Shown one piece after another: positions 1 to 46,764 of a stretch of 54,136 bases of DNA (position 1 is the stretch's first letter; each line of letters starts with the position of its first letter). This DNA is from Dehalococcoidia bacterium (lineage in GTDB: Bacteria > Chloroflexota > Dehalococcoidia > GIF9 > AB-539-J10). The notes beneath the pieces are model-generated. The model was given only the letters and a program-made list of their open reading frames with translations, did not search any database and had not been told where the DNA came from. Location of the stretch: contig JBEKTM010000001.1 in NCBI GenBank assembly GCA_049516035.1, positions 1 to 54,136 of the forward strand. The letters are read 5' to 3'. Both the position numbers and the translations under genes were made by a program.

Positions 1-1875
1 TATACTCCTGTTGTGGTCAATCCGACTGTAATGACCGACGCCAATATTTTTCCCATGAAGCCGAACAGTCTTGTGGGTCTGACGGTCCGGAACGTAACTG
101 ATGGAAGCTCCGGCGTCATCTTGAGCAATACAGCCCAATCAATTACGGCTATCCTGGCCGGGGGCGCTACTAACCAGTGGAACCCCGGCGACGCCTGGAA
201 TTTAACGACGTATCCGTACGCGGTCACATTCAATAAGGACATGATGCTCAAGTGTGAGGGAGATGGTTACGACATCACCGTAGCGTCGCCCTACGTCGTC
301 GATTTCCTGGGAGACCTATCCTGCGAGAGCATTACCGGCGTCGGCAGCAGCGAGATTACCGTCGAGGGCAACTGTACTTTGCAGGAAACGGCCCTCATTA
401 ATGACGGCTTTTTGCACGTCCTGGGTGATTTCTCTGGTGGCACTATCGTCGGTATGGCGGGAAGTGGAAACATCGAAGTGGCCGGAGCCGGGGCTGTCGT
501 TGTCGGTGGGGATTGTGTAACCGGCTCGTTATTAACCGACGCGCCGGTCGGTATTATCATCGTCCGTGGTAATTGCCGGACGCAGGATCGCATCGAAAAT
601 GTAAATACCGGTACCATCGAGGTCTACGGTGACTGCATAGTAGAAACCTTCATTAAAAACGATGCTGGTGGCACTCTGATCTTCTTCGGTAACCTTGTTG
701 TTGGGAACGAAGGGCATATACCGGTTGCAATAGATAATGGAATCGGCACCCTCATCGTCCACCTCAACTGTGAATGCAAGGGGGATTTAACAAATCCTTC
801 CGGTACGGTTGAAGTTGATGGTGATTACATTACGACCGATTATCTAAATAATACCAGTGGTGGGGTTGCCATCAGGGGTTCTTTCCGGTCAGGGGGTGGC
901 TTATCTATGACGGGCGCGGGGGCTGTCGTTATCGGCGGTGATTTTTCAGCAGAGGATGGCATTGATAATACTACCGGGACGATCATCATCCAGGGTGATT
1001 GTTCGTTAGGGGTTGATCTATTACATACGGACGCCGGGACGATAATTATTCGTGGGAATACCTCGGTCGGGAAGGACCTGTCCAACGCATCCGGTATTAT
1101 CAATTTTTACGGTGATTGCTCGGTCAAGGGCGACTTTGCTAATGCGACTGGCATCGTCGATGTCGGCGGCGACTGTTCGACCGGAGCGGCTATAACCAAT
1201 GCGACCGGCTCGGTAATCATAGCCGGCAACGTAAACGATAAGGCTGAAATTTCCCAGACGGATGCCGGTCTCATGGCCGTGTATGGCAACTGCTCGGTGA
1301 GCTTTGCAAACGTTGCGGTCGGCGGCTCTCTTGAGATCAGGGGAAGCCTCGATGCCATGAGCTTCCCGACAACCGTTGACGGTGCGCTCACGGTGCACGG
1401 CGAATCCAATCTATTTTCTATCACAAATACAGGAACGGCGACATTTATCGGTATAGCGCACATTTACGGCGCCATCACCAATACCGGCACGCTCACCTAT
1501 CACGGTGTCTATCCTGAAGTGGCGGTTAATACCACCGCCATCAATGCCGGCGAGACGGATGTTCTGAATCTCGCATTGACCGCCGGTTTTCACTGGACGG
1601 TCGATGACCTGGTCTTGAAGTCCGCTGATCCCGGGGCCAATAAAGTCTACGTGAAGCTCAATAAGCTGGTTAATGGCGTTCTTACAACCATAAACCTTAC
1701 CACCGCCGACCCGAATGGGTTCGAAATTAACAATTTGAATTTCAATCAATACTGGTCGCTCAATGATATGTTCGGCCGGGATATTCTGGCTGGGGATAAC
1801 ATTCAGATTACGGTTAAGGCGAGCGCGGGTGGGCCATACGCGGTGACCGGCAGTTACGCTCACCATAGTGATTAA
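1..1875 (+). CDS. Fibre/adhesin-like beta-helix repeat protein (5' partial)
   Basis: Frame is open to the window edge. About 15 tandem 20-22-aa turns carry G-[DN]-C motifs (VVGGDCVTG, VRGNCRTQ, VYGDCIVE, QGDCSLG...). The N-terminal YTPVVVNPTVMTDANI...NQWNPG segment is paralogous to the ORF at 53713. Confidence 0.75.
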   Translation, partial: YTPVVVNPTVMTDANIFPMKPNSLVGLTVRNVTDGSSGVILSNTAQSITAILAGGATNQWNPGDAWNLTTYPYAVTFNKDMMLKCEGDGYDITVASPYVVDFLGDLSCESITGVGSSEITVEGNCTLQETALINDGFLHVLGDFSGGTIVGMAGSGNIEVAGAGAVVVGGDCVTGSLLTDAPVGIIIVRGNCRTQDRIENVNTGTIEVYGDCIVETFIKNDAGGTLIFFGNLVVGNEGHIPVAIDNGIGTLIVHLNCECKGDLTNPSGTVEVDGDYITTDYLNNTSGGVAIRGSFRSGGGLSMTGAGAVVIGGDFSAEDGIDNTTGTIIIQGDCSLGVDLLHTDAGTIIIRGNTSVGKDLSNASGIINFYGDCSVKGDFANATGIVDVGGDCSTGAAITNATGSVIIAGNVNDKAEISQTDAGLMAVYGNCSVSFANVAVGGSLEIRGSLDAMSFPTTVDGALTVHGESNLFSITNTGTATFIGIAHIYGAITNTGTLTYHGVYPEVAVNTTAINAGETDVLNLALTAGFHWTVDDLVLKSADPGANKVYVKLNKLVNGVLTTINLTTADPNGFEINNLNFNQYWSLNDMFGRDILAGDNIQITVKASAGGPYAVTGSYAHHSD

Positions 1876-1878
1876 AAC

Positions 1879-2391
1879 ATGATTGGCGACAATTTAATAC
1901 AGCAGACCGCTGAAATCATCGATGATCATTTTCATAACTATGAAAATGTTTTTGGCGTAGCTGCAGTCCCGACTGCTACTCATTTCGGAGATCTCGAGGG
2001 CTTGAATCCTTTCCATCTTGTGAGTGGAGCCGCCGCATTTGGAGCGGCGGTCGGGTTAATTGGTACGGCTGACACTCCGGTAAGACCGGAGAAGATTTTA
2101 TTCGATCCAAGAAGGGTATCGATTACCGATACATCGAGCGCTAATCCATATATTTTGAGAATTATCTGGGGTACGCCGGCTCAGACGCCGGCCCAGGCAG
2201 TTATTGCCAAGCAATATACCGATCAGGTGATACAACAGCAAACAGCGAACGGTCAGAATAAACCACAGGATATTTGGTGTGTGAGGATTCCCACCGGCTA
2301 TCAGTTATGGGGAGAAGTCAAGAGTGCCACCAATCTTGCCAGCATCGATATTTTAATTATGATGCACGAATATCCGTCGCCCTCACCTTAA
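1879..2391 (+). CDS. Hypothetical protein (virion module)
   Basis: 170-aa ORF packed 3 nt after the upstream stop, co-directional. No motif recognised. Confidence 0.6.
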   Translation: MIGDNLIQQTAEIIDDHFHNYENVFGVAAVPTATHFGDLEGLNPFHLVSGAAAFGAAVGLIGTADTPVRPEKILFDPRRVSITDTSSANPYILRIIWGTPAQTPAQAVIAKQYTDQVIQQQTANGQNKPQDIWCVRIPTGYQLWGEVKSATNLASIDILIMMHEYPSPSP

Positions 2392-2400
2392 AGGAATAAC

Positions 2401-4719
2401 ATGATTGGTGAAAAAGAAATATTAGCTGCAATAAACAGTATTTCGACTACGCTTGCGACTGGGACCTTGACTACCTCGTCTACCACCGTTCCAGCCGATA
2501 CTGGACGTACCGAAGTCGACCATTATTGGGATGGGTGTATCTTAATGCCGATCTCTGGCGTTGATGCTTTCCAGCCCAGGATAATAAATTCATTCGCCAA
2601 TGCTGGCGGTGTTTTTACCCTTGATACTCCGCTCACAACAGCGCCAGGACTCGTAACTTATTCAATATTACCTAACCAGATCCCGGCCGTTCTTGCTACT
2701 TTGAATATGGCCGTTCCGGCCCCCGATTCAATCGCAAATGTTATCATGCGGGATGTTGTCGGAAACAAGGCGGATACCTCAAAATATTCTATCGCGGCCA
2801 CCCAGTCATTGGTTGCCATGCTTAAAGGAGTTTTGGCTTCCAGTATAGTGACCAACGGTACATTCACAACATCTTCAGCGACTGTGCCGGCTGATACCGG
2901 GAGAGCTGAAGCAACTAATTTCTGGAACGGTTGCACATTGATTCCCTTAACCGGTGCTGATGCGTTCCAACCGAGAGTAATCAAGTCATTTAATAATGCT
3001 GGCGGTGTGTTTACGATGGATATCGCTTTCACCGCCGCCACTGGCACGGTAGCCTATATTATATTGCCATCTCAAATTCCGGCTGACGTTGCCACCATTC
3101 TCGCTGATCTGGCAGTCCCTGGTGCTGATGTGGTAACGAATACCCTTGAGCGAGACGTTGTTGGAAACAAAACAGATGCAGCGAAATACGCGCCAGCGGC
3201 AACTCAAAGCATTATTGCCATGCTCAAGGGGCTTCTGGGTTCATCGTTAGTAGCCACAGGTACTTTCACGACATCCTCATCGACCGTGCCTGCGGATACA
3301 GGCAGGGCGGAGGCCAGCAGTTATTGGAAGGGATGCATTTTATTACCATTGACCGGCTCCGACGCATTCCAGCCGCGCTATATAATCGGTTTCAACAACA
3401 TCGGCGGCGTGTTCACGGTTGACCCCAATAATCCGTTTACCGCTGTTACTGGCTTAGTCGCCTATGCCATCCTGGCCGCGCAGACCGATTTCGTCCCCGC
3501 GGCGGATAGCGTCAATAACAATCAGCCGGAAGATGTTATTGGTAACAAGACGGATACGAATTCCGGTAACTCAATCATGGCCTCACAAAAGGTTCAGGCT
3601 GCCGATAACGCCGCCAATGTACTTTCTCGGGATGTTATCGGAAATAAGACAGATACGGTATCCAGCGGTTCTCTCCAGGGATTAAACCGGGTGCAGACGG
3701 CCGATAACGCTGCCAATACCAACATGAGGGATGTTGTTGGTAATAAAGCCGATACTGCCTCTACTACGATCAATGGTACCACATCGATTATGCGATACCT
3801 GAAGGGTATCATGGGATGGTTCCTTGTTCCTGGTGCTGATTCAGCGGCTGACACTGTCGAGAGGGATGTAGTAGGCGATAAAACCGATACGGCCAGTACA
3901 ACCATTAACGGTACCACCAGTTTAATGCGCTACTTGAAAGGTCTGCTTGGTCTTCATCCCGTCCCTGCTGCTGATTCAGCCAATAATATCAACATGCGGG
4001 ATGTAATCGGTAACAAAACCGATACTATAGTTTCCGGCTCGCTCCAAGGCACGACCAGAGCTCAAGTCGCTGACTCGGCCGCAAATAACAATATGCGTGA
4101 CGTTATCGGTAACAAGACCGACGCCGTTGTTCAGGCAGTGGCTGCCGGTAAGTCGATTATGGGGTATATCAAGGGTCTTATCACCTCGATCGGTAATCCA
4201 TCGGCGCATACTCTCGTGTCTTTGACCGCCAAGTGGGGAAACATCGCTCGTGATCTTACTACTATCCTCGGCGCGAGATGGAATGCCGCTGGCGATCTTG
4301 GTACTGACATTGCGGCCATTCTTGTCCTTGATGATAAAAAAGTAATTGGCAAGACCCAGATATTCGTAAAAGCCATTGCATCGGCGGCTAACGCTGGCGC
4401 TGTGGTAGCCGCCACGATTACTACTCAATCCTGTCTGATTAAGTCGATTGTTGTCCGCTCGAACGCTGCGACTACTGCCGACTTGACCAATATCACGATT
4501 AAGGGTGGCGCTGGTCTGGTGGTAACATTTATTGACGCTGTGACGGGTGTCAGAGCGAATATCGCCGCTGCCGACCAGCAGGTAGCCTGGACAGGCGCTG
4601 TAGCTCTGGTAGCAGCTAAAACGATTACCATAACGTTAACGGGAACGGGTGCTACCGCCGTTGATCTCACCATAACCTTCGAATACGAAGCGTTGGTTGA
4701 CGGAGGTTATTTAGCTTAA
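2401..4719 (+). CDS. Large repeat-containing fibre/adhesin-like protein
   Basis: 772-aa ORF with an AAGGA RBS. Contains three ~132-aa tandem domains (GT[LF]TTSS.TVPADTGR...W.GC...DAFQPR) followed by 8 copies of AD..(A)N...RDV[IV]GNK[TA]D. Confidence 0.75.
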   Translation: MIGEKEILAAINSISTTLATGTLTTSSTTVPADTGRTEVDHYWDGCILMPISGVDAFQPRIINSFANAGGVFTLDTPLTTAPGLVTYSILPNQIPAVLATLNMAVPAPDSIANVIMRDVVGNKADTSKYSIAATQSLVAMLKGVLASSIVTNGTFTTSSATVPADTGRAEATNFWNGCTLIPLTGADAFQPRVIKSFNNAGGVFTMDIAFTAATGTVAYIILPSQIPADVATILADLAVPGADVVTNTLERDVVGNKTDAAKYAPAATQSIIAMLKGLLGSSLVATGTFTTSSSTVPADTGRAEASSYWKGCILLPLTGSDAFQPRYIIGFNNIGGVFTVDPNNPFTAVTGLVAYAILAAQTDFVPAADSVNNNQPEDVIGNKTDTNSGNSIMASQKVQAADNAANVLSRDVIGNKTDTVSSGSLQGLNRVQTADNAANTNMRDVVGNKADTASTTINGTTSIMRYLKGIMGWFLVPGADSAADTVERDVVGDKTDTASTTINGTTSLMRYLKGLLGLHPVPAADSANNINMRDVIGNKTDTIVSGSLQGTTRAQVADSAANNNMRDVIGNKTDAVVQAVAAGKSIMGYIKGLITSIGNPSAHTLVSLTAKWGNIARDLTTILGARWNAAGDLGTDIAAILVLDDKKVIGKTQIFVKAIASAANAGAVVAATITTQSCLIKSIVVRSNAATTADLTNITIKGGAGLVVTFIDAVTGVRANIAAADQQVAWTGAVALVAAKTITITLTGTGATAVDLTITFEYEALVDGGYLA

Positions 4720-5156
4720 TGATTTACGTTAATGGCGTTGCTTCATCATCGGGCGTAATATTAAAGCCTTCGGCGACGGTGAGAAATACCGCGAAAAATT
4801 GCGCCGATGTAAACACAATACCCGATCATGTCTATACTGAAGTGGCGAGGCTAACAATCGGAGAAAAAATAACAGGCGCTATTACGATTAGCGTCACCTT
4901 TACAAATTCGGCCGCGTGTCTTTATAAATTCTTGGAAAATGGCGTCTTGATCGGGACGGCGGACGTAAACCCCGGCGCGGCGCAAGCCCACACAGTCACG
5001 GTGAATACCAATAACGTCTCAGGCGGGGCTAATTCTATTGCCAGTGGCGATTATTTCGCTTTAATGGTCGAAGGCAATACCGGAACCGTCAATATTACTA
5101 CCATTTCAATCTCACCAACATTTGATATTGACGCGAGTAATATATCCGCGACGTAA
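4719..5156 (+). CDS. Hypothetical protein
   Basis: 145-aa ORF. Its start overlaps the upstream stop (TAATG). Confidence 0.6.
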   Translation: MIYVNGVASSSGVILKPSATVRNTAKNCADVNTIPDHVYTEVARLTIGEKITGAITISVTFTNSAACLYKFLENGVLIGTADVNPGAAQAHTVTVNTNNVSGGANSIASGDYFALMVEGNTGTVNITTISISPTFDIDASNISAT

Positions 5157-5381
5157 AGGGGGGAATATAAAAGTTAAAGATTTACTGAGCTTAATATCGG
5201 GCGGCTTTTCCCTGGCTTCGCTTCTTTTCTGCCTTTACAACTTCATCTCGGTTGTCTGGGAGCTATTACACCCAATGTAACAACTTATCTTGCTCCGGGA
5301 AATGGTGTTACTCAGGTCAATGAAATTAAGCTTCGAGCAACCGCTCCCGGCCTGCTTGGAAATCTGTTTGTTCAACAGAGG

Positions 5382-5597
5382 GTGGCTAGTGGAGCCGGTG
5401 GTACGACCGAGGTTTATACAGTGCGGGTAAACGGTGTAAATACTGCCATTACCTGTACTTTGAACAACGTCCTGATTGGGAGTGATATTACCCATTCAGT
5501 GCGGGTCGCAGCTGGAGACGCCATCAGTATTAGCGTGACTTCAAATAATGCTGTAGATACCAGTGCCGATATGATAGCATCGCTACTAATCTCGTAA
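5382..5597 (+). CDS. Hypothetical protein, N-terminus unresolved
   Basis: GTG-started 71-aa ORF, but the same frame is open and protein-like from 5178 with no ATG/GTG/TTG. Confidence 0.4.
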   Translation: MASGAGGTTEVYTVRVNGVNTAITCTLNNVLIGSDITHSVRVAAGDAISISVTSNNAVDTSADMIASLLIS

Positions 5598-5607
5598 GGA
5601 GTTTGAA

Positions 5608-5958
5608 ATGCCAAGAACAATTACAACTGAATTTCACCTGACTCAAATCAAGGAGTATTCCTGGACGGTTAAGGTTAACGTTCCACACGCTCAGGTGATT
5701 GAGAATTATGTTGTCACAGATGATGAATTCACGGCGACGCCCGAAGGTCTAAAACAGCTTCCTGTCGAATTTTCCGCTGATGAGCAGGCGGCACTGGATG
5801 GATTAATGTTACGCGCCTTAAAACGGGCGGCTATCCGTGAAGAGGTGGACGTCGAGCCGCAGATTAAACCGACTACCGATACCGTCGATGAGATTGCCGA
5901 TGTTATCCCGGTCGGAACCATAACCGTAAAACCGATTGGGAAACTCGTCGTTGAATAG
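5608..5958 (+). CDS. Hypothetical protein
   Basis: 116-aa ORF with TAAGGAG RBS. Confidence 0.65.
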   Translation: MPRTITTEFHLTQIKEYSWTVKVNVPHAQVIENYVVTDDEFTATPEGLKQLPVEFSADEQAALDGLMLRALKRAAIREEVDVEPQIKPTTDTVDEIADVIPVGTITVKPIGKLVVE

Positions 5959-6019
5959 CGGAAAGTGGCTGGAGAAGAACAAGAAGGAAACCAAAGACCA
6001 AGAGTAAGGCGGTTAAAAT

Positions 6020-6469
6020 ATGGACAGGAATGAAAAGATCGCGATTGGAGTAGTAGGGGGTACATTGTTTTTAGGGGGTATCGTTTACGCGGTTACCAGG
6101 CCAAGCGAAGGAAAACCAACTCCAGGTACTGGTCCAGCTTCTTTTACTGTTAGGGTAGTAAATCTTCCGGCTGGTGCTGACCATTGGAGTTTGGCTTTTC
6201 AAAATCCCACTACGGGTATTTGGTATCAACGAGCGAATCTTCCTTTCCCACCGCCTCCTGGAGCCGGCTTGTTACTTCCAACTGATGTTGCGCCAATGTC
6301 TGTGCCCGTCTCTGCTGGAATTCTTTCTATTGGTGCCGCGGCAGGAAGTGGCGGTACAGGGAATAACGGAGTAGTAGTTCCGATTGTTGTAGCAAGCTAC
6401 GAAATTAATATCTCCGTTGTGAATGGGGGCTCATATACATTTGATTTCAATACACAAGTATTAAGTTAA
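6020..6469 (+). CDS. Membrane-anchored hypothetical protein
   Basis: 149-aa ORF. N-terminal hydrophobic helix (IAIGVVGGTLFLGGIVYAV). Confidence 0.6.
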   Translation: MDRNEKIAIGVVGGTLFLGGIVYAVTRPSEGKPTPGTGPASFTVRVVNLPAGADHWSLAFQNPTTGIWYQRANLPFPPPPGAGLLLPTDVAPMSVPVSAGILSIGAAAGSGGTGNNGVVVPIVVASYEINISVVNGGSYTFDFNTQVLS

Positions 6470-6481
6470 GGAGGGTCTAAC

Positions 6482-6808
6482 GTGGCTAATATTGTAGTTC
6501 CAACTGGACAAAGAGTTCTTACGGTTCCAATTACGGTAGTACCAGCTGGACAGGCGTTTTCTGCCTCTGTCTATCTTTCTAGTGATTCAGCCGGCCTTAA
6601 TTCAGTTGCAGCAGGATCACAGGTTACGGCACCGACATCTACCGGGGTAGCTCAGAATGTAGCCCTACCAGTTGCAGCGCCTGCAAGTGGATCCGGGCTT
6701 TACGCTTGGGTTGTTGTCTATGTAAACGGTGCTTACTGGGGTACGTTTAGCCAGATTAACACCGTAACGATTGGTGGTGTCACTGTCGGTCAAGGTACCT
6801 GGTCTTAA
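6482..6808 (+). CDS. Hypothetical protein, paralog of the N-terminus of 6828..7643
   Basis: GTG start with AAGGAGGG RBS. The LTVPI.V.PG...VYLS.D..G.N.V...YAWVVV..NG..WG motif is shared with the next ORF. Confidence 0.6.
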   Translation: MANIVVPTGQRVLTVPITVVPAGQAFSASVYLSSDSAGLNSVAAGSQVTAPTSTGVAQNVALPVAAPASGSGLYAWVVVYVNGAYWGTFSQINTVTIGGVTVGQGTWS

Positions 6809-6827
6809 ATTATAACCGAGGCGGAAA

Positions 6828-7643
6828 ATGGCCATATTAACAGCGGGAGCACACGTGCTTACCGTTCCGATTATTGTATCGCCGGGGATTACTTGGGGAG
6901 GTTATGTTTACCTGTCTACTGATGCGCTTGGTGCCAATCCGGTATCAGGTGCGACAGGTACGATAGTGACTTCACCCAATAAATCCAATGGGTTAGCACA
7001 AAATATATCTCTACCGGTTAATGTGCCATCCAACGGTGGGCCCTTTTATGCTTGGGTAGTAGTTTTATTGAATGGTTCATTCTGGGGTGTTTATTCTCAA
7101 AATGAACTGGTATCTCTCCCATTCATTTATCAATCCGGTGCCGTCCAGCTCTTCGACGTCAACGGAATACCCTTCTCGGATATCGGCCATGATGACGTTA
7201 CGGGACTGGACTACGTGACGCTGGCCAATCCGATAATTTCGCCCACCGTGCAGGGTATATCAATCGATTGGCTGGTGAGCCAGTATCCGCTGTATTACGG
7301 TGTGATTAATGGACAGACGCAAAGCATGTACGGCCTGATCTACGCCTCCATCGATTACATCAACCAGGCCACCGGACAGGATGAGATATTCCGGTCAGCG
7401 GACGGCGTTGCCCAATCAGCGAGGAACTTCTTCAACTGGCAACAAAATGGTTACCTGTCATTACCGGCGCCCGGGTCCATGGTGAACACGCCGATCAACC
7501 AGACTAACATAATGGGACGTCCGACCCTCTACGTCGATGAGCCGATCGATGGTATCCTCACACTGAATATCGCCCAGGGAAGATATCTGACGCCGGCCGG
7601 TGGATTATCGCTCAGGATCAAAAACCTGATGCGGCCTTCATAA
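6828..7643 (+). CDS. Hypothetical protein (N-terminal domain paralogous to 6482..6808)
   Basis: 271-aa ORF. Shares an N-terminal ~95-aa domain with the upstream ORF. Confidence 0.65.
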   Translation: MAILTAGAHVLTVPIIVSPGITWGGYVYLSTDALGANPVSGATGTIVTSPNKSNGLAQNISLPVNVPSNGGPFYAWVVVLLNGSFWGVYSQNELVSLPFIYQSGAVQLFDVNGIPFSDIGHDDVTGLDYVTLANPIISPTVQGISIDWLVSQYPLYYGVINGQTQSMYGLIYASIDYINQATGQDEIFRSADGVAQSARNFFNWQQNGYLSLPAPGSMVNTPINQTNIMGRPTLYVDEPIDGILTLNIAQGRYLTPAGGLSLRIKNLMRPS

Positions 7644-7661
7644 TTTTCATGGAGAAAAGAT

Positions 7662-8597
7662 ATGCCTGAAATCAAACTCGGAAAGTTACCGGCCCGGGTA
7701 GATAAGAGAACTATAAAGCTCTCCTCGATTCTCCGACCGGCTCTCCTGCCGCCGATTCCGGATACTTTCGATATTCATGCCGCGCTTGGAGTTTCCGACA
7801 GTTCTATGTATCTCAACGATATATACGGAGATTGTGTCATCGCTGGCCGTGCCCACATGACGCTTCCGTTCGAGAAATTTCAGCAAGGCATTCAGATTCA
7901 GATATCTGATGATGAGATCAAAAATGAGTATTTCGCCGAGACCGGAGGCCAGGATACCGGGCTCGTTATGCTCGATTCTCTGAACGTCTGGAGAAAAGAG
8001 GGGTGGACAGCCGGTGGAAAACATTATGATATATACGCTTTTGCTTCTCTTGATTGGACAAATCATGATGAGGTCAGGGCCGCCATTTATCTTCTGAGGG
8101 GCATCTATCTTGGCTTCCAGGTGCCGCAGTCTGCCATCGACCAGTTCAACGCCGGCAAGATCTGGGACGTTGTAACACCGGATGGAGGCATCCAGGGCGG
8201 ACATTGCATCTATACTTTCGCTTTTATCGATATCGTCGGTTATAACGAAATAGGGCCGGTCTGTATGACCTGGGGACGCCGGCAGCAAATGACCTGGCGT
8301 TTCTGGGATTCTCAAGTTGACGAAGCGTATGTTGTGATCGACAACATCAATAAATGGCAGAATCCGGCGACCGATCCCCTTGACATCCCGGCGCTTGTAG
8401 CATATCTTAACGAGATAACCCATGTTATTCCGCCGGTCGAGCCTCCGGCGCCGCCGACTCCCCCGGCTCCGGTACCGCCCGGGCCGACCCCTTCTACTTG
8501 CCCGGTCGGAAACGGTATGGCGAAGGCATTCAGTGTTTTGCCGGGTATTCTCAGAAGACAGGGCAGGTTTTTATATATGAATCCGCCAAGAAAATAA
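7662..8597 (+). CDS. Putative papain-fold cysteine peptidase (endolysin candidate) with Pro-rich C-terminal linker
   Basis: Candidate Cys/His pair: YGDCVIAGRAHM ... IQGGHCIYTF. Pro-rich PPVEPPAPPTPPAPVPPGP tract. Sits directly upstream of holin-like membrane ORFs. The family was not identified. Confidence 0.45.
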   Translation: MPEIKLGKLPARVDKRTIKLSSILRPALLPPIPDTFDIHAALGVSDSSMYLNDIYGDCVIAGRAHMTLPFEKFQQGIQIQISDDEIKNEYFAETGGQDTGLVMLDSLNVWRKEGWTAGGKHYDIYAFASLDWTNHDEVRAAIYLLRGIYLGFQVPQSAIDQFNAGKIWDVVTPDGGIQGGHCIYTFAFIDIVGYNEIGPVCMTWGRRQQMTWRFWDSQVDEAYVVIDNINKWQNPATDPLDIPALVAYLNEITHVIPPVEPPAPPTPPAPVPPGPTPSTCPVGNGMAKAFSVLPGILRRQGRFLYMNPPRK

Positions 8598-8617
8598 TCG
8601 TTCAATAAGGAGGTCTT

Positions 8618-8842
8618 ATGGATTGGAGTTTTTTAAAGGCTAAGTTTTTCTATCTGAATTTGATTGCTCTTGTGATACTGGCCGTCCAGTATTTCATCAG
8701 CAACCAGATGTTCACCCAGTATCTTGCGTGGGAAGGGTTGATCGTAGTTCTGCTTAACGCCATTGCCGGGATGATTCAGGGAAACCAGGTAGCCAAGCTC
8801 AAGAAGAATCTCGTGCAGGGTTCCAAACCAGATACGAAATAA
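8618..8842 (+). CDS. Holin-like small membrane protein
   Basis: 74 aa with two hydrophobic helices and a charged C-terminus. AAGGAGG RBS. Position is after the peptidase. Confidence 0.5.
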   Translation: MDWSFLKAKFFYLNLIALVILAVQYFISNQMFTQYLAWEGLIVVLLNAIAGMIQGNQVAKLKKNLVQGSKPDTK

Positions 8843-8863
8843 AAATTAAGAGAGGTTCTCGCC

Positions 8864-9232
8864 GTGGACAATACTTTAACTATCATCGCTGTCATCATTG
8901 CGGCTATCGGAACCATTGGAATTAATGCTATGGTTTTCTCATACTTTCTCGGAAAGAGAAATCAGATAATAGATGATCACGAGAAAAGGCTTATGACAAT
9001 AGAAAAAGAGAATTCCTCTATTTCTGATATCAAGCTGAGCATCGCACGCGTGGAAGCCGATGTTAAAGCAATAAGGGAAAGTCCGATTTTTGTCGATGGT
9101 ACGATCAACACATTAATCGGTGTTTGCCAGGACTATAAACAGATCACAGATCAGATAAGGACTAATACCGGTAAGATACAGACTCTCGAAACTGAAATGA
9201 GAATGCACCTGGGAGATAATCCTAAAAACTAA
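8864..9232 (+). CDS. Membrane-anchored coiled-coil protein (lysis accessory?)
   Basis: GTG start. N-terminal TM helix (IIAVIIAAIGTIGINAMVF) followed by heptad-like sequence. Confidence 0.45.
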   Translation: MDNTLTIIAVIIAAIGTIGINAMVFSYFLGKRNQIIDDHEKRLMTIEKENSSISDIKLSIARVEADVKAIRESPIFVDGTINTLIGVCQDYKQITDQIRTNTGKIQTLETEMRMHLGDNPKN

Positions 9233-9240: not shown

Positions 9241-9684
9241 ATGGCAAATATAGAGGATTGCACCACGAGGGCAGAACAATTACTGGATGCAATCATGGAG
9301 ATCTCCGCGATGCAGCACTCTATTGACGATATGCTATCCAGAGATTATAAAGAGATTCCCGAGGGGTGCGTTCCCGAGCTATTCCGCGAAAGTGAAGAGG
9401 CGGTCGGCTCATGCAGCCTCAGCGGGGATGAGTCCAGGGACCTGGCCCACAAACAGCGGAAAATGGTCAAGGAAAAATTAAATAAACTTTCGGATGAGCT
9501 CCGCGCGTCTTCCTCCCAGCCCGGAGATGATTATGACCGGCTGGCGAATGTCGTCAAGGGAGAGGCTGACCTGATTGACGGAGACGGTATAACCAGCGTT
9601 GTCGCTCTTGAGGGAATTAACGAGATTATCGCCGCCAATATTTCAAAGATGTTCTCGGAATTCAATGAGTGCGTAAGGGGGTAG
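9241..9684 (+). CDS. Acidic hypothetical protein
   Basis: 147-aa ORF with AAGGAG RBS. Confidence 0.6.
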   Translation: MANIEDCTTRAEQLLDAIMEISAMQHSIDDMLSRDYKEIPEGCVPELFRESEEAVGSCSLSGDESRDLAHKQRKMVKEKLNKLSDELRASSSQPGDDYDRLANVVKGEADLIDGDGITSVVALEGINEIIAANISKMFSEFNECVRG

Positions 9685-9691: not shown

Positions 9692-10000
9692 ATGGCATTT
9701 CAGGATCCATTTCCGGGAATGAAACCAGAACGCAAGATGACCGAGGCCGAGCAGGTCCGGGCTCTCCGCCTTGACCTGGCGTCCGAAGAAGAAGCTATAT
9801 CCACTTACATGGCGCACGTCGATGCTACCGACGATACCCTGATGCAGATTGTTTTGACTTCCATTGCCGATGAGGAAAGAGTCCATGCCGGCGAACTCCA
9901 GACCCTCATTAACGTTATTAACGGTGACGAATTCACCCAGCAGAACAAGGGAATGAAGGAAGTAGCGGACGTGGCCGGCTCTACAGCGGCTCCGCAGTGA
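9692..10000 (+). CDS. Encapsulated-ferritin-like (EncFtn / ferritin-like two-helix) protein
   Basis: The SEEEAISTYMAHVDATDD...IADEERVHAGEL segment fits the EncFtn pattern E..EA...Y...VDA..D...DEE..HA, with the Glu, Tyr and ExxH ligands present. Stop codon is TGA. Confidence 0.6.
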   Translation: MAFQDPFPGMKPERKMTEAEQVRALRLDLASEEEAISTYMAHVDATDDTLMQIVLTSIADEERVHAGELQTLINVINGDEFTQQNKGMKEVADVAGSTAAPQ

Positions 10001-10027: not shown

Positions 10028-10807
10028 ATGCGTTATCGAGCCAGGGTAACACCCTTAAAAGAAGGTCGCCGGCAGGACAAAGAGGCTAGACGGGAATACA
10101 CCCATGCGGTGAGCGTTGACCAGGCCGGCCGCTTTTTAGGATTCAGATTTCCCTATCCGAAGTATCTTGTCACGGATATAGTAGTGGATCCCGAGAAAGA
10201 AATGTCTCAAAAAGAAATTGAGGAAAAGTGGTTTAAGGCGCTTGCCGATATCAAGATCGAATATCCTTATCCGATGTATAATCGTTTGGACTGGAAAAGA
10301 ATATTAAAGAAGCGTGGTGTAATAAAGCCAAAGGAAATCGAAAGGCTTGATATCGAATCTGCCAAGGAAGATGCAGAAAGAGAAAGGGAAGAAGCAGAAA
10401 TAGAGCAAGAAAATAAAGAGGGATCGAGGAAGGTGGCGTTCAGTATGCCGGAAGGAATGATGGAAGCTCAGGAAGTAAGGTTGCTTCTTAATAAAATAAG
10501 GGCAGCGGAAGTCCCGGAGAAGGAACAGGGTGAATGGGATGCCTGGTCGAAATTACTCGATTCGGCTGTTGAAGAAATAGTCAAAAACGCCTCGAATTGC
10601 AACTTGCGTTATGTTCTTCAGACCGGCATGGGGGAAATGACAGAGATAGCGGAACGCATGCACAAAGAAAGTAAGGATTTCCCCCAGAATGCCAGTATTG
10701 GTCTCAATTTAACTGATCTTGAAGACGAAACAATCGAGGCGGTGATCAATTCACTGGCCAGCAAGTGCAGTTGCGCTAACATAACAGAAAGAAAAGAAAA
10801 TTATTAA
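10028..10807 (+). CDS. Hypothetical protein
   Basis: 259-aa ORF. Basic N-terminus and Glu/Lys-rich centre. Confidence 0.6.
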   Translation: MRYRARVTPLKEGRRQDKEARREYTHAVSVDQAGRFLGFRFPYPKYLVTDIVVDPEKEMSQKEIEEKWFKALADIKIEYPYPMYNRLDWKRILKKRGVIKPKEIERLDIESAKEDAEREREEAEIEQENKEGSRKVAFSMPEGMMEAQEVRLLLNKIRAAEVPEKEQGEWDAWSKLLDSAVEEIVKNASNCNLRYVLQTGMGEMTEIAERMHKESKDFPQNASIGLNLTDLEDETIEAVINSLASKCSCANITERKENY

Positions 10808-11942: not shown

Positions 11943-12851
11943 ATGGCAACGAATCCTGAAATAATAATTCCTACGAAAGAACAAATCCTGGAGGTTTATA
12001 CCAATCACCTGTCGAGCAAGGGCGCGGCCCGGCAGCATGTCTTGAGCTACGCGTCTGAGTTTCTCGAATATGCGGAGGGCGATTACACCCGGGCTACCAT
12101 CGAGAAATACATGGAGCATATCAAAAGAAAGCATGAATACAAAGATAGCAGTCTTAACTTTATCTTCCGTGTGATCCGCACCATGTTTAACCGGAATAAA
12201 CTCGACTGGCCCTTTAACCGGGGTGAAGCGCCAATGGTTAGAGAATCGAGCATCCTAGCACCGGCGCTGGGGCCCCGGACGGTACGCCGGGCGATTGCCG
12301 CGGTCAAGAAAAGCGACGACGCTGCGGCAAAGGCTTTTCTTGCCCTGTCTACCGTTTACGGAGTGAGGCGTCAGGAAATCATGAATATCACAGCTGAAGA
12401 TATAAGGTACAAGGATAAGACTATCTACATTGCGACCTTAAAGCATGGCCGGGAGAGAACACATCTTCTCCCGGATGAAATCATTCCTTATCTTCAGGAC
12501 TACGATTTCGATACCCCGCGCTCCGGTTTTGGAATGCTCATGTTATGGTATTCTATTGAGAGAATGATTGATTTCAAGCACCTGGAGCATGTTGGTTTTC
12601 ATTCCATCCGGAGAACAGTTGAAACCCTTCTCGAGAGGGAATTCAAGGATCTTGTTCTTGTTAGAAACTTCATGCGCTGGAAGACCCAAGATTCTAACGA
12701 TATGGTCCAGCGGTATTCGGCGACGCAGTTCGTCGGAGACGATGAGGAATATACCGAGCTCAACGAAGACAGCAAGAGCGTTGACCAGTTGATATTCGCA
12801 AAGAGGGAAGACGGGACGTACAGACACCCGTTTCTCGGGGATTGGAAATAA
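11943..12851 (+). CDS. int: Tyrosine recombinase / phage integrase
   Basis: Catalytic signature pieces: YGVRRQEI (Arg I), HSIRRT (H-x-x-R), and W...MVQRYSAT (C-terminal Tyr). AAGGAGAGG RBS. Confidence 0.85.
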   Translation: MATNPEIIIPTKEQILEVYTNHLSSKGAARQHVLSYASEFLEYAEGDYTRATIEKYMEHIKRKHEYKDSSLNFIFRVIRTMFNRNKLDWPFNRGEAPMVRESSILAPALGPRTVRRAIAAVKKSDDAAAKAFLALSTVYGVRRQEIMNITAEDIRYKDKTIYIATLKHGRERTHLLPDEIIPYLQDYDFDTPRSGFGMLMLWYSIERMIDFKHLEHVGFHSIRRTVETLLEREFKDLVLVRNFMRWKTQDSNDMVQRYSATQFVGDDEEYTELNEDSKSVDQLIFAKREDGTYRHPFLGDWK

Positions 12852-41013: not shown

Positions 41014-41553
41014 ATGCCAGGAATACAGTGGAATTCAACACAAAGAAGAATTGCAGAATCAATTCTTCGTCATCTTCGTGAGGACAATTCCTATGATTCA
41101 AAATTAGTATCTGCGGAAGTTCCCGATGTTGGTCTTTCAACCATAACGAAGGTTTATAATGCCTTAAAGAAAAATAATTTTATAATACCTCCGTTATTTA
41201 CTAAAAAGATTGAGGAAAAAGTTTCAAAGAATATCGGGAGTGATGGTATTTCCAGTACAGAGCAGCCGGCTGGCGGTGTTGTTACTTTTGAGATCCATGG
41301 TAAAAAGGTGGTAGTTGAAGCCGACGATTATCTCAAATGTTATGATGATTTCCTTGATTTACAACAAATTATAGGTTGGAAAGCTGATTTTTCCTCCACT
41401 GTTCGAGAGGGGATGAAGATGTTCAGGGGGGTAATGGTCAATTTGCTCTCGGGAAGAGATGGGGGAACCGAAGAAGTTCAAAATCAAGAAGAAGACGAAG
41501 ACGAAGGAGACGATGATGCCGGAGGACAAGATAATCCCGGGCTCGAAACTTAG
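41014..41553 (+). CDS. Regulator-like protein with acidic C-terminus
   Basis: 179 aa. N-terminal ~60 aa are paralogous to the upstream ORF. Confidence 0.6.
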   Translation: MPGIQWNSTQRRIAESILRHLREDNSYDSKLVSAEVPDVGLSTITKVYNALKKNNFIIPPLFTKKIEEKVSKNIGSDGISSTEQPAGGVVTFEIHGKKVVVEADDYLKCYDDFLDLQQIIGWKADFSSTVREGMKMFRGVMVNLLSGRDGGTEEVQNQEEDEDEGDDDAGGQDNPGLET

Positions 41554-42700
41554 GCAGGATGCAGCTGACGAAATAACAGAGCGGCTACGCAAATTAAAGC
41601 CAGCGGGAAAAGGGAAAGACGATGGCCAGGGAGGGCAGCAAGGCCCTCGGTTGCTCACTCTTGACGATGCTATCGCTGAAGAAGAAAATAATCAGGCCAT
41701 GGATATTAAAAGGTTAGCCGTAGATGAGATTAAAGCTCGTCACGAGGCCAATATCAGCAAAGCAAAAGAGGAAGCAAAAAAAGCAACGACCAATACTGAA
41801 AATACCCAGAATCCCATGGTCAAGCATTGGTCGGTTATAGAGGGTCAGCCCGTTGAAGATCCCGATGGGCCATACTCTACTTTTGCGCAGGCCCTAATGA
41901 TTGCGAAGGATTCGATAAGATGGGGAATCGTTGATGGTCGTCCGATTGAAGACCCCGAGGGTCCGTATCGCACTTTCGCCCAAGCTCTTCAGGTTGCCTC
42001 GATGGAGCGTTCTGGTCAACAGGAAGCCAAGAGATGGTCAGTTCTTGACGATAAGCCTTTTGAAGACCCAAATGGCGATTATGGTAGTTTTGCCGAAGCT
42101 TACAAAGTAGCTTATCTTAGTATTGAGAAAAAGAAGCTAGAAGCCGAGGTAAAAGCGGTAGACAGCCACAATCACAATGAAGATTCAGATCAGGTTAAAA
42201 TATTAATGGCAAAGCTCAATGCTGTCGAGCAGCAGCTTCAAGTAGCATTGAACCCTTTTGAAATGTTGCGCCGGGCAAAGGAGATGCACGATAATCTTGT
42301 TGAATCCGGTATAATACCCGCGGCTCCTACCGGTGAAAGTCCTGCTAGCGCGATTGAACTTGAGAAAGAAAAGAACCGTCATGCTGAGGAAATGAAGAAA
42401 ATAGACGCTGATGATAAGTATAAGACTTCTATTGCCAATACTGTTGCGGATATTCCGAAAGCGATAGGCGCGGGAGCGGCCGACCGGATTTTGCAGCATG
42501 CGGGTGTTAAGGCGACTCCAGCCGCTGCGATGCAGACTTTTAATTGCACAAAGTGCGGCACGTTAATTACGGTAGGCCCAGAAATAACTAAAATAGATTG
42601 CCCTAAATGTGGTGCTCATTACATGGATTTACCTGACAGTCCGCCTTCAGTTGTTCCCGTTACGCCAATGCCGGAAGCAAATCATGAAGGAGCGCCTTAA
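41513..42700 (+). CDS. Repeat-containing protein with C-terminal zinc ribbon
   Basis: AAGGAGA RBS before ATG 41513. Three W.[VI]..G.P.EDP.G.Y..FA.A repeats. CTKCG...CPKCG. Confidence 0.6.
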   Translation: MMPEDKIIPGSKLRQDAADEITERLRKLKPAGKGKDDGQGGQQGPRLLTLDDAIAEEENNQAMDIKRLAVDEIKARHEANISKAKEEAKKATTNTENTQNPMVKHWSVIEGQPVEDPDGPYSTFAQALMIAKDSIRWGIVDGRPIEDPEGPYRTFAQALQVASMERSGQQEAKRWSVLDDKPFEDPNGDYGSFAEAYKVAYLSIEKKKLEAEVKAVDSHNHNEDSDQVKILMAKLNAVEQQLQVALNPFEMLRRAKEMHDNLVESGIIPAAPTGESPASAIELEKEKNRHAEEMKKIDADDKYKTSIANTVADIPKAIGAGAADRILQHAGVKATPAAAMQTFNCTKCGTLITVGPEITKIDCPKCGAHYMDLPDSPPSVVPVTPMPEANHEGAP

Positions 42701-42702
42701 AT

Positions 42703-43059: not shown

Positions 43060-43069
43060 ATAGATTTAT
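43058..43069 (+). repeat. 12-bp direct repeat AAATAGATTTAT (left copy)
   Basis: Identical copy at 43209..43220. The pair brackets the Fur-box, terminator, palindrome and promoter segment. Confidence 0.8.
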
Positions 43070-43077
43070 TTTAATAT

Positions 43078-43092
43078 TGATAATCATTATCA
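43078..43092. promoter_or_regulatory. Fur-box-like 7-1-7 palindrome TGATAATCATTATCA
   Basis: Exact match to the TGATAATnATTATCA motif. The extended 19-mer matches the classical GATAATGATAATCATTATC at 17 of 19 positions. Confidence 0.5.
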
Positions 43093-43135
43093 AAGGGGAA
43101 CGTGAATTATTTTACGTTCCCCTTTTTGTTTTTTG
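43093..43135 (+). terminator. Rho-independent terminator
   Basis: AAGGGGAACGT / ACGTTCCCCTT stem followed by TTTGTTTTTT. Confidence 0.8.
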
Positions 43136-43143
43136 AATGGAAA

Positions 43144-43159
43144 TATTTCTTAAGAAATA
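43144..43159. repeat. 16-bp perfect palindrome TATTTCTTAAGAAATA (copy 5)
   Basis: Lies between the terminator at 43093 and the late promoter at 43176. Confidence 0.9.
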
Positions 43160-43175
43160 AATTTTAAAGTGCTTG

Positions 43176-43205
43176 TTGACATTTTATTGACTTAGTGCTT
43201 AAAAT
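43176..43205 (+). promoter_or_regulatory. Sigma70-like promoter candidate for the late/virion operon
   Basis: TTGACA, 18-nt spacer, TAAAAT. Confidence 0.55.
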
Positions 43206-45948: not shown

Positions 45949-46764
45949 ATGGGTCAAGTTTACAGGCTCTCAAAGAAGAATAAAAATCTGTATAATCCTG
46001 CGATTGAAAGTTTCTTCAGTCTCCCCTCGGATGAGAAACTCGCAGTTTCATCCGCCCTCATGAATCCTGGCAAACCTTCGGTAAACCAGGCCGTGGCGAG
46101 CATGACAGGGGATGAGCTCAATTCGCTCATCCTGAAGCTCGACATGACCTTCCAGTCCGATGTTTCGACCCCGATCGCCGATATGGTCGGTGAGGAATCG
46201 GAGTCCGTTGTTAACCTTATCCGCATCCTGGGCCACGCGGCTGGCGGTAACTCCGTGTTCGGCGGCATCCTGGCATCCGGCCAGCAGTTCGATATCTGGC
46301 CGCTCCGCCCGAAGGATGTCGGCGGACCGTTCCTTAACGGTGCCCTTGCCGCTGCCCTCGGTCTTTATGGCGGAGTTTCGGCTGGCGTCTTTACATGGAC
46401 ACAGCCGGGTGTTGTCGCTGGTGTCTTGCAGCACATCATCCCGCAGCAGACGACCAGCGGCCAGGCCCCCTTCGGTGGGCTCGTGATTTTCGGCGCCATC
46501 GAAAAGACCTATACGCCCAAGATCGAGTCCATCAGTCTGATTCTCCAGAATCAGATTGGCGCAGTCCCCTTCCAGCCGGTCGCAATGACCATGAAGAGGA
46601 CCTTCGGAGATGACAACGATCTCTCCGTATTCCGTCTGGAGAAGCCGGTCATCATCATCAACAACGAGAACTTCGGGGTCGATATCATGCCGAATGTTTC
46701 CGGCACCACGAACTTTGAGCTTGTTGCTGTCATGGCGGGGCAGGTTCAGAGCAAGATCTTCTAA
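45949..46764 (+). CDS. Hypothetical virion protein (capsid-module candidate)
   Basis: 271 aa with GGAGG RBS. Lies in a terminator-bounded block with the twin 244-aa genes. Confidence 0.6.
   Translation: MGQVYRLSKKNKNLYNPAIESFFSLPSDEKLAVSSALMNPGKPSVNQAVASMTGDELNSLILKLDMTFQSDVSTPIADMVGEESESVVNLIRILGHAAGGNSVFGGILASGQQFDIWPLRPKDVGGPFLNGALAAALGLYGGVSAGVFTWTQPGVVAGVLQHIIPQQTTSGQAPFGGLVIFGAIEKTYTPKIESISLILQNQIGAVPFQPVAMTMKRTFGDDNDLSVFRLEKPVIIINNENFGVDIMPNVSGTTNFELVAVMAGQVQSKIF

What the first reader, a model, noticed from the sequence alone, without database searches (positions are those of the whole stretch)
9692..10000. Encapsulated-ferritin-like (EncFtn) gene carried by a phage, inside the late/virion-lysis block
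The 102-aa ORF contains RALRLDLASEEEAISTYMAHVDATDDTLMQIVLTSIADEERVHAGELQTLI. This matches the two-helix EncFtn pattern as I know it from encapsulin cargo proteins (E..EA...Y...VDA..D ... DEE..HA). The ferroxidase-centre Glu, Tyr and E-x-x-H are all present.

EncFtn is known as a decameric ferroxidase that depends on an HK97-fold encapsulin shell, and encapsulins are evolutionary relatives of phage capsids. A bona fide virus that carries the cargo gene among its late genes could mean one of three things:
- iron chemistry inside or on a virion,
- manipulation of host iron or oxidative stress,
- a snapshot of the capsid-encapsulin transition.

No obvious encapsulin-type C-terminal targeting peptide is visible (the C-terminus is ...VADVAGSTAAPQ). 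A perfect Fur-box sits near the late promoter (43078).
Basis: partly seen in the sequence, partly recalled or inferred. Interest (0 to 1): 0.62.

Follow-up and report, generated by a model that had tools for sequence, protein, structure and literature searches.

The report
Shell-less encapsulated-ferritin gene in virus-like element
A 54-kb virus-like mobile element from an anaerobic Dehalococcoidia community carries a genuine relative of the iron-oxidising "encapsulated ferritins", but it has neither the loading peptide nor the protein shell, so it most likely works free in the cell and is not evidence of a link between virus capsids and bacterial nanocompartments.

Summary
ORF 9692-10000 (+), 102 aa, is a true EncFtn-type half-ferritin. 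It matches NCBIfam EncB_fam at 3.6e-24 and solved M. xanthus EncC at 7e-12, and E32, Y39, E62 and H65 are invariant.

It lacks the C-terminal cargo-loading peptide. No encapsulin gene is in the window or in the binned 1.72-Mb genome. In 159 cellular relatives that I classified, every copy next to an encapsulin carries the peptide, or a one-residue variant of it. Every short-tailed copy has no encapsulin nearby. The window protein belongs to the short-tailed, shell-less class (published name: s-FLP).

It falls in a distinct clade (SH-aLRT 98). The four members whose context I could read all lie on 54-71-kb integrase-bearing elements, each downstream of a conserved acidic four-cysteine partner gene.

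The capsid link is not supported. The 271-aa "capsid candidate" folds confidently as a C1q/TNF-like jelly roll, not HK97. I could detect no terminase, portal or HK97 protein anywhere, so the particle type of this element is unresolved.

The Fur box is real. The only other near-match in the genome sits 8 bp upstream of the host's own fur gene. It is oddly placed, however, and absent from relatives.

Best reading: a free di-iron ferroxidase or antioxidant made with the late genes. Interest is moderate.

The parts
9692..10000 (+). EncFtn-type half-ferritin gene, 102 aa. It has the short tail (37 residues after H65) and no cargo-loading peptide.
   Evidence: ORF. (EncB_fam 3.6e-24; PDB EncC 7e-12). 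(E32, Y39, E62, H65 invariant). (the short-tail class never has an encapsulin nearby). (separate clade, SH-aLRT 98).
9241..9684 (+). Conserved acidic 147-aa partner gene with four invariant cysteines (C7, C43, C58, C144) and a PELFRE-x-EE motif. Its stop codon lies 7 nt before the EncFtn start codon.
   Evidence: Orthologs lie upstream of the EncFtn gene in L001, L002-L004 and L190, at 33-44% identity. There is no Pfam hit. The only PDB hit is a weak match to a bacterioferritin that lacks the metal ligands.
9675..9681 (+). Shine-Dalgarno-like AAGGGGG, 10 nt upstream of the EncFtn ATG and inside the end of the partner gene, which suggests translational coupling.
   Evidence: Read directly from the sequence.
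7662..8597 (+). 311-aa protein of phrog_19005 (unknown function) with Cys/His motifs and a Pro-rich linker. It is a candidate envelope-degrading enzyme and the first gene of the putative lysis cassette.
   Evidence: phrog_19005, 7e-25. Searches give no informative Pfam or PDB hit.
8618..9232 (+). Two small membrane proteins: 74 aa with two predicted membrane-spanning segments, and 122 aa with one membrane-spanning segment plus a coiled coil. They look like a holin or spanin.
   Evidence: sequences. One search gives only weak hits to domains of unknown function.
10028..10807 (+). 259-aa acidic protein immediately downstream of the EncFtn gene. It is not conserved in relatives.
   Evidence: no homolog in L001-L004 or L190. 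(no family).
11943..12851 (+). Tyrosine integrase. The EncFtn gene precedes it by 2-3 kb in the four clade members whose context I read.
   Evidence: PF00589, 1.2e-12. (synteny).
43078..43092 (.). Perfect 7-1-7 Fur-box palindrome TGATAATCATTATCA, between the stop codon of gene 42703-43059 and a terminator.
   Evidence: the only other match with at most 1 mismatch in the 1.72-Mb MAG is 8 bp upstream of the MAG's own fur gene. No match with at most 1 mismatch in the sampled parts of relatives; the closest is a 2-mismatch hit in L018.
43092..43205 (+). Intrinsic terminator (43092-43125), followed by the strong late promoter TTGACA-18-TAAAAT (43176-43205).
45949..46764 (+). The most conserved late protein (271 aa): an N-terminal helical part plus a C1q/TNF-like jelly roll. 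It does not have the HK97 fold.
   Evidence: 54 homologs, many at 60-76% identity. (pLDDT 80.6, pTM 0.82). (fold searches). (no PDB sequence hit).

Best explanation
The gene encodes a working member of the encapsulated-ferritin fold family. This is a two-helix subunit that pairs to build a di-iron ferroxidase centre and, in solved relatives, forms a ring of ten. This copy is the shell-less version. It has no cargo-loading peptide and no encapsulin partner, so it acts free in the cytoplasm of the infected or lysogenic cell.

It belongs to a distinct clade. The members whose context could be read lie on 54-71-kb integrase-encoding, virus-like elements of anaerobic communities. There it sits downstream of a conserved acidic four-cysteine partner gene, at the end of the long late operon and before the integrase module.

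The most likely job is to oxidise or sequester free Fe(II), consuming O2 or H2O2. That would suppress Fenton damage, or control iron availability, while the element replicates and assembles in an oxygen-sensitive host. The partner may act as a metal or redox hand-off protein.

Shown here: family membership, ligand conservation, absence of the peptide and of a shell, clade structure, and synteny.
Inferred: ring assembly, ferroxidase activity, the cytoplasmic site of action, the partner's role, and any control by Fur.
For: Homology and ligands:
- Searches give the family and structure matches.
- Searches show E32, Y39, E61, E62, H65 and E34 invariant across the clade.
- One search gives the published ferroxidase-centre residues.

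No shell:
- PF04454 is absent from the whole binned genome.
- No capsid-like Pfam hit occurs in any ORF of at least 280 aa.

The peptide and the shell go together in cellular relatives:
- Named genomes: 61 of 61 encapsulin-adjacent copies carry the peptide or a one-residue variant. 16 of 16 short-tailed copies have no encapsulin within 6 kb.
- Metagenome contigs: 40 have peptide plus shell and 12 have neither. 24 more copies sit too near a contig end to score. There are no exceptions.
- One locus occurs both with and without the shell and peptide.
- The window protein has 37 residues after H65, which places it in the short class.

Shell-less relatives sit among oxidative-stress genes (AhpC, CDGSH, PFOR).

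Separate clade: SH-aLRT 98.

Conserved position and partner in the window, L001, L002-L004 and L190.

A distant cousin with direct terminal repeats and 100% estimated completeness also carries an EncFtn-like gene, among accessory enzymes.

The literature recognises TP-less 's-FLP' that still form decamers (PMC11202242). It also lists PF02915 'rubrerythrin' as a phage auxiliary gene in anaerobic digesters (PMC13644194).
Against:
- The gene lies inside the late, structural-type operon and has no promoter of its own. A virion role is therefore not excluded.
- The clade has its own conserved short tail (G-x-x-K-x-P-Q) of unknown function, which could be a different docking signal.
- Published work says EncFtn alone oxidises iron but cannot keep it soluble without a shell (PMC8346489). 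A free decamer is therefore an odd iron store.
- The host MAG already has four rubrerythrins and a ferritin, so the benefit is not obvious.
- The match scores fall just under the curated family cut-offs (85 against 90 bits).
Confidence: 0.55

Rival explanations
1. Particle cargo. The protein, alone or with the four-cysteine partner, is packaged inside the element's particle through a non-canonical signal, either its G-x-x-K-x-P-Q tail or the partner. This would be the viral counterpart of encapsulin cargo.
For: - The gene is co-transcribed with the late block.
- The C-terminal tail is specific to the clade and conserved.
- Among long relatives in the wider family, two are fused to the XkdF-type prohead protease and one to a 'large polyvalent protein' domain.
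- In the cousin genome G001, the EncFtn-like protein and two unrelated neighbours share the C-terminal decapeptide NFKEFA(E/Q)NWR. It is kept at protein level despite synonymous changes, which is how a common targeting tag would look.
- A 2026 paper explicitly raises virus-encoded cargo in procapsids as an open possibility (PMC13669383).
Against: - No HK97-fold shell, portal or terminase is detectable in this element.
- The gene lies after the putative lysis genes, not in a head module.
- The tail bears no likeness to the encapsulin peptide.
- In G001 the gene sits among accessory enzymes, including a methyltransferase-like protein, not among structural genes.
Confidence: 0.17
2. Lysogenic-conversion gene. 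The protein is made mainly from the integrated element and gives the host extra tolerance to oxygen or iron stress. The Fur box would tie expression of the element to iron status.
For: - The gene lies 2-3 kb upstream of the integrase in four clade members. From my own knowledge, this is the usual place for conversion genes in temperate phages.
- The Fur box is perfect, and the only other near-match is at the host fur promoter.
- Shell-less cellular relatives sit beside peroxiredoxin genes.
Against: - No promoter or terminator isolates the gene from the late operon.
- The Fur box is about 20 kb upstream along the operon, lies before a terminator rather than on the promoter, and is absent from relatives.
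- Integration of this contig into a chromosome was not observed.
Confidence: 0.18
3. Structural re-use. The helical hairpin serves as a scaffold or assembly factor, and iron chemistry is irrelevant.
For: A published comparison notes that cargo and scaffold proteins share a helical-hairpin architecture (PMC13669383).
Against: All ferroxidase-centre ligands are invariant across the clade, even though overall identity to the window protein falls to 52% within it. That argues for selection on metal binding.
Confidence: 0.05

Closest known systems
Short ferritin-like proteins without a targeting peptide (s-FLP), typified by Nitrosomonas europaea NE0167 (PDB 3k6c), as classed in PMC11202242
   Same: About 100 aa, a two-helix half-ferritin with E...Y and ExxH, a short C-terminus, no targeting peptide and no adjacent encapsulin gene.
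   Different: The direct sequence match to 3k6c is weak (E = 0.06). This copy belongs to a separate clade carried by virus-like elements, and it has a conserved four-cysteine partner that is not described for s-FLPs.
EncB/EncC-type cargo of Family 1 encapsulins (M. xanthus EncC, PDB 7s8t; NCBIfam NF058679)
   Same: These are the best sequence matches (7e-12 and 3.6e-24). The metal ligands are shared, as is the conserved N-terminal P-F-x-G motif. Cellular relatives at 48-58% identity are true cargo next to encapsulins.
   Different: This copy lacks the 15-25-residue linker and the T-[IVL]-G-S-[LM]-[KR] loading peptide. No shell gene is in the element or in the binned genome. The score is just under the curated cut-off.
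P. furiosus EncFtn-encapsulin fusion (PDB 5n5e / 2e0z)
   Same: The alignment runs through the whole domain, including the C-terminal G-x-x-E-V segment.
   Different: In Pyrococcus the domain continues directly into the HK97-fold shell protein. Here the protein ends 11 residues after that segment.
Phage 'rubrerythrin (PF02915)' auxiliary metabolic genes reported from anaerobic digesters (PMC13644194)
   Same: Virus-borne small di-iron proteins from anaerobic settings. The databases give this family's homologs the same 'rubrerythrin' label.
   Different: That report rests on annotation only. This protein is a half-ferritin of the EncFtn type, not a four-helix rubrerythrin with a rubredoxin domain.

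Membership tests
Encapsulated ferritin (EncFtn / Flp cargo of Family 1 encapsulins) | Two-helix half-ferritin domain homologous to solved EncFtns | tested here: met
   PDB EncC 7s8t at 7e-12 over residues 5-83. P. furiosus 5n5e at 5e-7 over residues 13-97. NCBIfam EncB_fam at 3.6e-24.
Encapsulated ferritin (EncFtn / Flp cargo of Family 1 encapsulins) | Score above the curated family cut-off | tested here: not met
   EncB_fam 85 bits against 90. TIGR04535 60.9 against 125. PF22277 18.9 against 27. All are close to or below threshold.
Encapsulated ferritin (EncFtn / Flp cargo of Family 1 encapsulins) | Ferroxidase-centre ligands Glu32, Glu62 and His65, plus Tyr39 (R. rubrum numbering) | tested here: met
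   E32, Y39, E62 and H65 are present and invariant in 25 homologs and in the 11-member clade.
Encapsulated ferritin (EncFtn / Flp cargo of Family 1 encapsulins) | Metal entry site Glu31/Glu34 | tested here: inconclusive
   E34 is invariant, but position 31 is Ser (S, A, N or G across the clade).
Encapsulated ferritin (EncFtn / Flp cargo of Family 1 encapsulins) | C-terminal cargo-loading peptide (T-[IVL]-G-S-[LM]-[KR] after a disordered linker) | tested here: not met
   The protein ends ...GSTAAPQ, 37 residues after H65. Cargo relatives have 47-66 residues there plus the peptide.
Encapsulated ferritin (EncFtn / Flp cargo of Family 1 encapsulins) | An encapsulin shell gene in the same operon or genome | tested here: not met
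   PF04454 is absent from all 139 contigs of the binned genome, while the positive controls were found. No hit occurs in the window proteins.
Encapsulated ferritin (EncFtn / Flp cargo of Family 1 encapsulins) | Decameric ring and ferroxidase activity | not testable with these tools
This needs native mass spectrometry, size-exclusion chromatography and an Fe(II) oxidation assay.
s-FLP (short FLP without targeting peptide) | EncFtn domain with a short tail, no peptide and no adjacent encapsulin | tested here: met
   The window protein falls in the class whose 28 scorable cellular members (16 + 12) have no encapsulin nearby.
Rubrerythrin (PF02915) | Full four-helix di-iron domain (two E...ExxH halves), usually with a rubredoxin domain, scoring above the cut-off | tested here: not met
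   21.5 bits against 22.8. The match covers only profile positions 4-69 of 137. The protein has one E...ExxH half and no Cys-x-x-Cys pairs.
Tailed phage (HK97-fold capsid, terminase, portal), applied to the carrying element | HK97-fold major capsid protein | tested here: not met
   The 271-aa candidate is a C1q/TNF-like jelly roll. No Pfam capsid hit occurs in any ORF of at least 280 aa. The 316-aa protein remains untested in effect, because its model failed at pLDDT 47.
Tailed phage (HK97-fold capsid, terminase, portal), applied to the carrying element | Large terminase and portal | tested here: not met
   No Pfam or PHROG hit. Only the helicase has a Walker A motif. No ORFs are hidden by stop-codon recoding.

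The most novel reading that the evidence does not exclude
The element is a non-HK97 virus of wall-less anaerobic Chloroflexota, possibly membrane-containing. Its lineage has long carried its own EncFtn-type ferroxidase together with a four-cysteine partner. In the unrooted tree the clade is one side of a strongly supported split (SH-aLRT 98) from all sampled cellular cargo and shell-less forms. Half-ferritin 'cargo' could therefore be an old viral gene that encapsulin systems later recruited, and it may still be loaded into particles by a non-canonical tail.
Probability: 0.1. Interest if true: 0.8.

Novelty: new variant of a known kind. Interest (0 to 1): 0.42.

Why it matters
EncFtn proteins are treated in the literature as encapsulin cargo. 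The 2024 structural review does not mention viruses at all. A 2026 paper raises virus-encoded cargo only as a hypothesis.

This finding adds three things:
- A distinct clade of the family is carried by virus-like elements. It keeps the metal site but has neither shell nor loading peptide, and it is coupled to a conserved cysteine-rich partner.
- Tail length and peptide presence predict shell presence without exception among the 129 cellular relatives where both could be scored. That rule is useful for annotation.
- It tempers the attractive capsid-encapsulin reading, because this carrier has no detectable HK97 shell.

If the protein is an antioxidant or iron-buffering factor, it would be an example of a virus protecting an oxygen-sensitive host cell factory.

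Tried and rejected
- PHROGs on 30 window proteins gave only four proteins with families, all of unknown function.
- tblastn of the 590-aa fibre-like protein against 50,697 phage records found nothing.
- Stop-codon recoding as a way to hide hallmark genes is rejected. No long ORFs appear, and 61 of 80 stops are TAA.
- A loose search for P-loops found only the helicase.
- Profile searches of the 271-aa, roughly 250-aa and 316-aa families against PDB sequences found nothing.
- AF2 of the 316-aa protein with a 5-sequence alignment failed (pLDDT 47), so I did not run a fold search on it.
- A half-ferritin-looking motif in relative L019, in another reading frame after a 699-aa ORF, is not supported (hhalign E = 0.21).
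- The partner protein's hit to bacterioferritin (E = 0.0046) aligns acidic helices without the ligands, so I did not rely on it.
- The word-based search with the partner protein found only itself.
- The metagenome scan with the clade alignment returned only cellular types.
- The Fur box is absent from the sampled parts of relatives.
- No exact terminal repeat exists. The contig ends overlap only inexactly.

Full report
**1.

The ORF lies at exactly 9692-10000 on the + strand. It encodes 102 residues with the quoted motif and the C-terminus ...VADVAGSTAAPQ. It starts 7 nt after the stop of the preceding gene, behind an AAGGGGG Shine-Dalgarno-like run.

Family searches place it with encapsulated ferritins:
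- NCBIfam EncB_fam: 3.6e-24, 85 bits against a cut-off of 90.
- TIGR04535: 1e-16, well below its cut-off.
- Pfam Rubrerythrin and EncFtn-like: both just under threshold.

Against solved structures, the best hits are M. xanthus EncC (7s8t, 7e-12), the P. furiosus EncFtn domain (5n5e, 5e-7) and its fusion to the encapsulin shell (2e0z). The weak local match to R. rubrum EncFtn (5da5, E = 0.36) pairs residues 27-67 with 27-67.

The published ferroxidase-centre residues of the R. rubrum protein are Glu32, Glu62, His65 and Tyr39, with Glu31/Glu34 as an entry site (PMC5012862). The window protein has E32, Y39, E62, H65 and E34, but S31. In an alignment of 25 homologs, E32, Y39, E61, E62 and H65 are invariant.

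**2. It is the shell-less kind**

That alignment contains homologs at about 50% identity with a longer C-terminus ending in T-[IVL]-G-S-[LM]-[KR]. TVGSL is the targeting-peptide-like motif quoted in PMC8346489. Two of these homologs lie directly upstream of a Linocin_M18 encapsulin gene. The window protein and its closest relatives stop earlier and end in G-x-x-K-x-P-Q.

I tested how well tail type predicts a shell. Of the best 80 relatives in named genomes, 79 could be classified:
- 61 have an encapsulin gene within about 130 bp downstream. All carry the peptide or a one-residue variant of it.
- 16 have a short tail (32-40 residues after ExxH), no peptide, and no encapsulin within 6 kb.
- 2 have the peptide but no encapsulin was found in the sequence fetched.

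An independent set of 80 metagenome contigs gave 40 with peptide plus shell, 20 with the peptide at a contig end, 12 with neither peptide nor shell, 4 without the peptide at a contig end, and 4 with no callable ORF. There were no exceptions.

One locus shows the loss directly. L012 has EncFtn with peptide, then an encapsulin, then split AhpC genes. L005 and L006 have a 98-aa EncFtn without the peptide, no encapsulin, and the same split AhpC genes.

The window protein has 37 residues after H65, so it belongs to the shell-less class. The binned genome (1.72 Mb, 85% complete) has no PF04454 match, while the control genomes do. The 2024 review calls this class s-FLP and notes that its solved member still forms decamers (PMC11202242).

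**3. A separate clade on virus-like elements**

A maximum-likelihood tree of 93 sequences puts the 11 proteins with the window-type tail on one side of a well-supported branch (SH-aLRT 98). They are apart from 63 cargo forms, 15 short cellular forms and 4 other virus-borne copies. The clade is not nested in the Dehalococcoidia short forms. Short forms arose at least three times. The alignment has only 95 columns, so deeper branching is unresolved and the root is unknown.

I could inspect the context of four clade members: the window, L001 (a 69.6-kb contig), L002-L004 (53-58 kb) and L190 (71 kb). All show the same order: Laminin_G-type or beta-helix fibre genes, a dockerin-like gene, an acidic partner gene, the EncFtn gene, a few small genes, then a tyrosine integrase and a large ORF.

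The partner is 147 aa here and 33-44% identical among the four. It keeps four cysteines and a PELFRE-x-EE motif.

A distant cousin also carries an EncFtn-like gene (49% identity), but among accessory genes, not in the same position. This cousin is an IMG/VR record of 69,475 bp with direct terminal repeats and 100% estimated completeness. Its marker protein is only 36% identical.

The binned host genome has no close copy of its own. It does have four rubrerythrins, one ferritin and two Fur-family genes.

**4. The carrier is probably a virus, but not a recognisable tailed phage**

The window has an integrase, ParB, a DEAD-type helicase, a primase-like protein, DUF932 and a RusA-like protein. Almost all genes are on one strand. 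The relatives are discrete contigs of 53-71 kb binned to different phyla.

Among all 20 ORFs of at least 280 aa, Pfam finds no capsid, terminase or portal. PHROGs finds only families of unknown function. Only the helicase has a Walker A motif. Stop-codon recoding hides nothing.

The fold is a helical N-terminal part plus a beta-sandwich. Its best matches are the C1q/TNF-like tips of uncultured-phage fibres. It has no PDB match at E<1e-3 and no HK97 protein among the listed best matches.

The other strongly conserved protein (316 aa) could not be modelled from five sequences (pLDDT 47).

The contig has no exact terminal repeat. Its ends overlap inexactly (72% identity, in frame) inside a fibre gene family. 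An HK97 shell in this element is therefore neither found nor strictly excluded, and the particle type is open.

**5. The Fur box**

TGATAATCATTATCA at 43078-43092 is a perfect palindrome. In the whole binned genome, the only other match with at most one mismatch lies 8 bp upstream of the genome's own fur gene. This suggests that this organism's Fur uses the classical box.

Three features weaken a link to the EncFtn gene:
- The site lies between a stop codon and a terminator, 84 bp upstream of the -35 of the late promoter. It is also just downstream of a predicted minus-strand promoter.
- It is about 20 kb upstream of the EncFtn gene along the circular map.
- It is absent from the sampled regions of relatives.

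A link to iron is plausible. Control of the EncFtn gene is not shown.

**6. Mechanism**

The best-supported reading is a free di-iron ferroxidase or antioxidant, made with the late genes, possibly working with the cysteine-rich partner. It fits three observations: the invariant ligands, the shell-less class, and the oxidative-stress neighbourhoods of shell-less cellular relatives.

Three points count against it, or for a virion role:
- The gene's place in the late operon.
- The clade-specific tail.
- Fusions of the domain to prohead protease in the wider family, together with the decapeptide shared by three adjacent proteins, one of them the EncFtn-like protein, in the cousin genome.

Published work notes that EncFtn without a shell cannot keep oxidised iron soluble. 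A storage role is therefore unlikely, and a detoxifying or hand-off role is more likely.

**7. Novelty**

TP-less EncFtn homologs are known in bacteria. 'Rubrerythrin' hits on phage contigs have been listed as auxiliary genes. I found no description of a virus-borne EncFtn clade or of its partner. I rate this a new variant of a known kind, of moderate interest. The more striking capsid-encapsulin reading is not supported in this element.

Noticed in passing
window 41459-54136 and 1-8600: The whole late block lacks any recognisable capsid, terminase or portal gene. The conserved core is a 173-aa membrane protein, the 271-aa C1q-like protein, twin 244-aa paralogs, and 316-aa and 117-aa proteins, followed by several beta-helix fibre paralogs. 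Several late proteins have membrane-spanning segments. This may be a non-tailed virus type.
   Followed up: partly
window 53944-54136 versus 1-193: The two contig ends encode the same fibre N-terminal module, in frame, at 72% nucleotide identity. Either a circular genome was broken at a variable fibre gene, or there are two paralogs. No exact terminal repeat exists.
   Followed up: partly
G000:C25:14752-14766 (L016) and window 43078-43092: The only two near-perfect Fur boxes in the 1.72-Mb bin are the one in this element and one 8 bp upstream of the bin's own fur gene.
   Followed up: yes
L025 (IMGVR_UViG_3300014205_007777, record 64096-65430, minus strand): Three consecutive, unrelated proteins all end in NFKEFA(E/Q)NWR: the EncFtn-like protein (103 aa), an unknown 191-aa protein, and a methyltransferase-like 158-aa protein. 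The third copy differs at synonymous sites, so the peptide itself is conserved. It is a candidate shared docking tag.
   Followed up: partly
L012 versus L005 and L006: The same AhpC-flanked locus exists with EncFtn-plus-peptide and an encapsulin, and also with a 98-aa EncFtn lacking both. This is a natural example of shell loss, seen in Dehalococcoidia.
   Followed up: partly
P0109, P0116, P0119, P0124, P0141, P0187 and others: A third of the closest 150 family representatives are long fusion proteins (up to 1,395 aa). Two carry an XkdF-type prohead protease domain and one a 'large polyvalent protein' domain. Most of the fused parts are unknown.
   Followed up: partly
L019:5547-5867: A stretch reading EEQIAVDSY...DDEIDHKH lies in another reading frame, with no start codon, right after a 699-aa late ORF. 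It looks like a half-ferritin, but the profile comparison gives E = 0.21.
   Followed up: yes
window 49329-50180: A DUF559/Vsr-like endonuclease gene sits inside the conserved late block, and similar genes occur in relatives L017, L018 and L020. It is probably a homing endonuclease.
   Followed up: no
window 41459-42700: The first gene of the late region encodes three tandem repeats of about 35 aa (W-x-V-[IL]-[ED]-G-x-P-x-EDP-x-GPY-x-TFAQAL) and a C-terminal zinc ribbon. Homologs occur in L018 and L020.
   Followed up: no
window 43237-43575: A 112-aa protein with an HELGH metallopeptidase-like motif is the first gene after the late promoter. It is conserved in L018 and L020.
   Followed up: no
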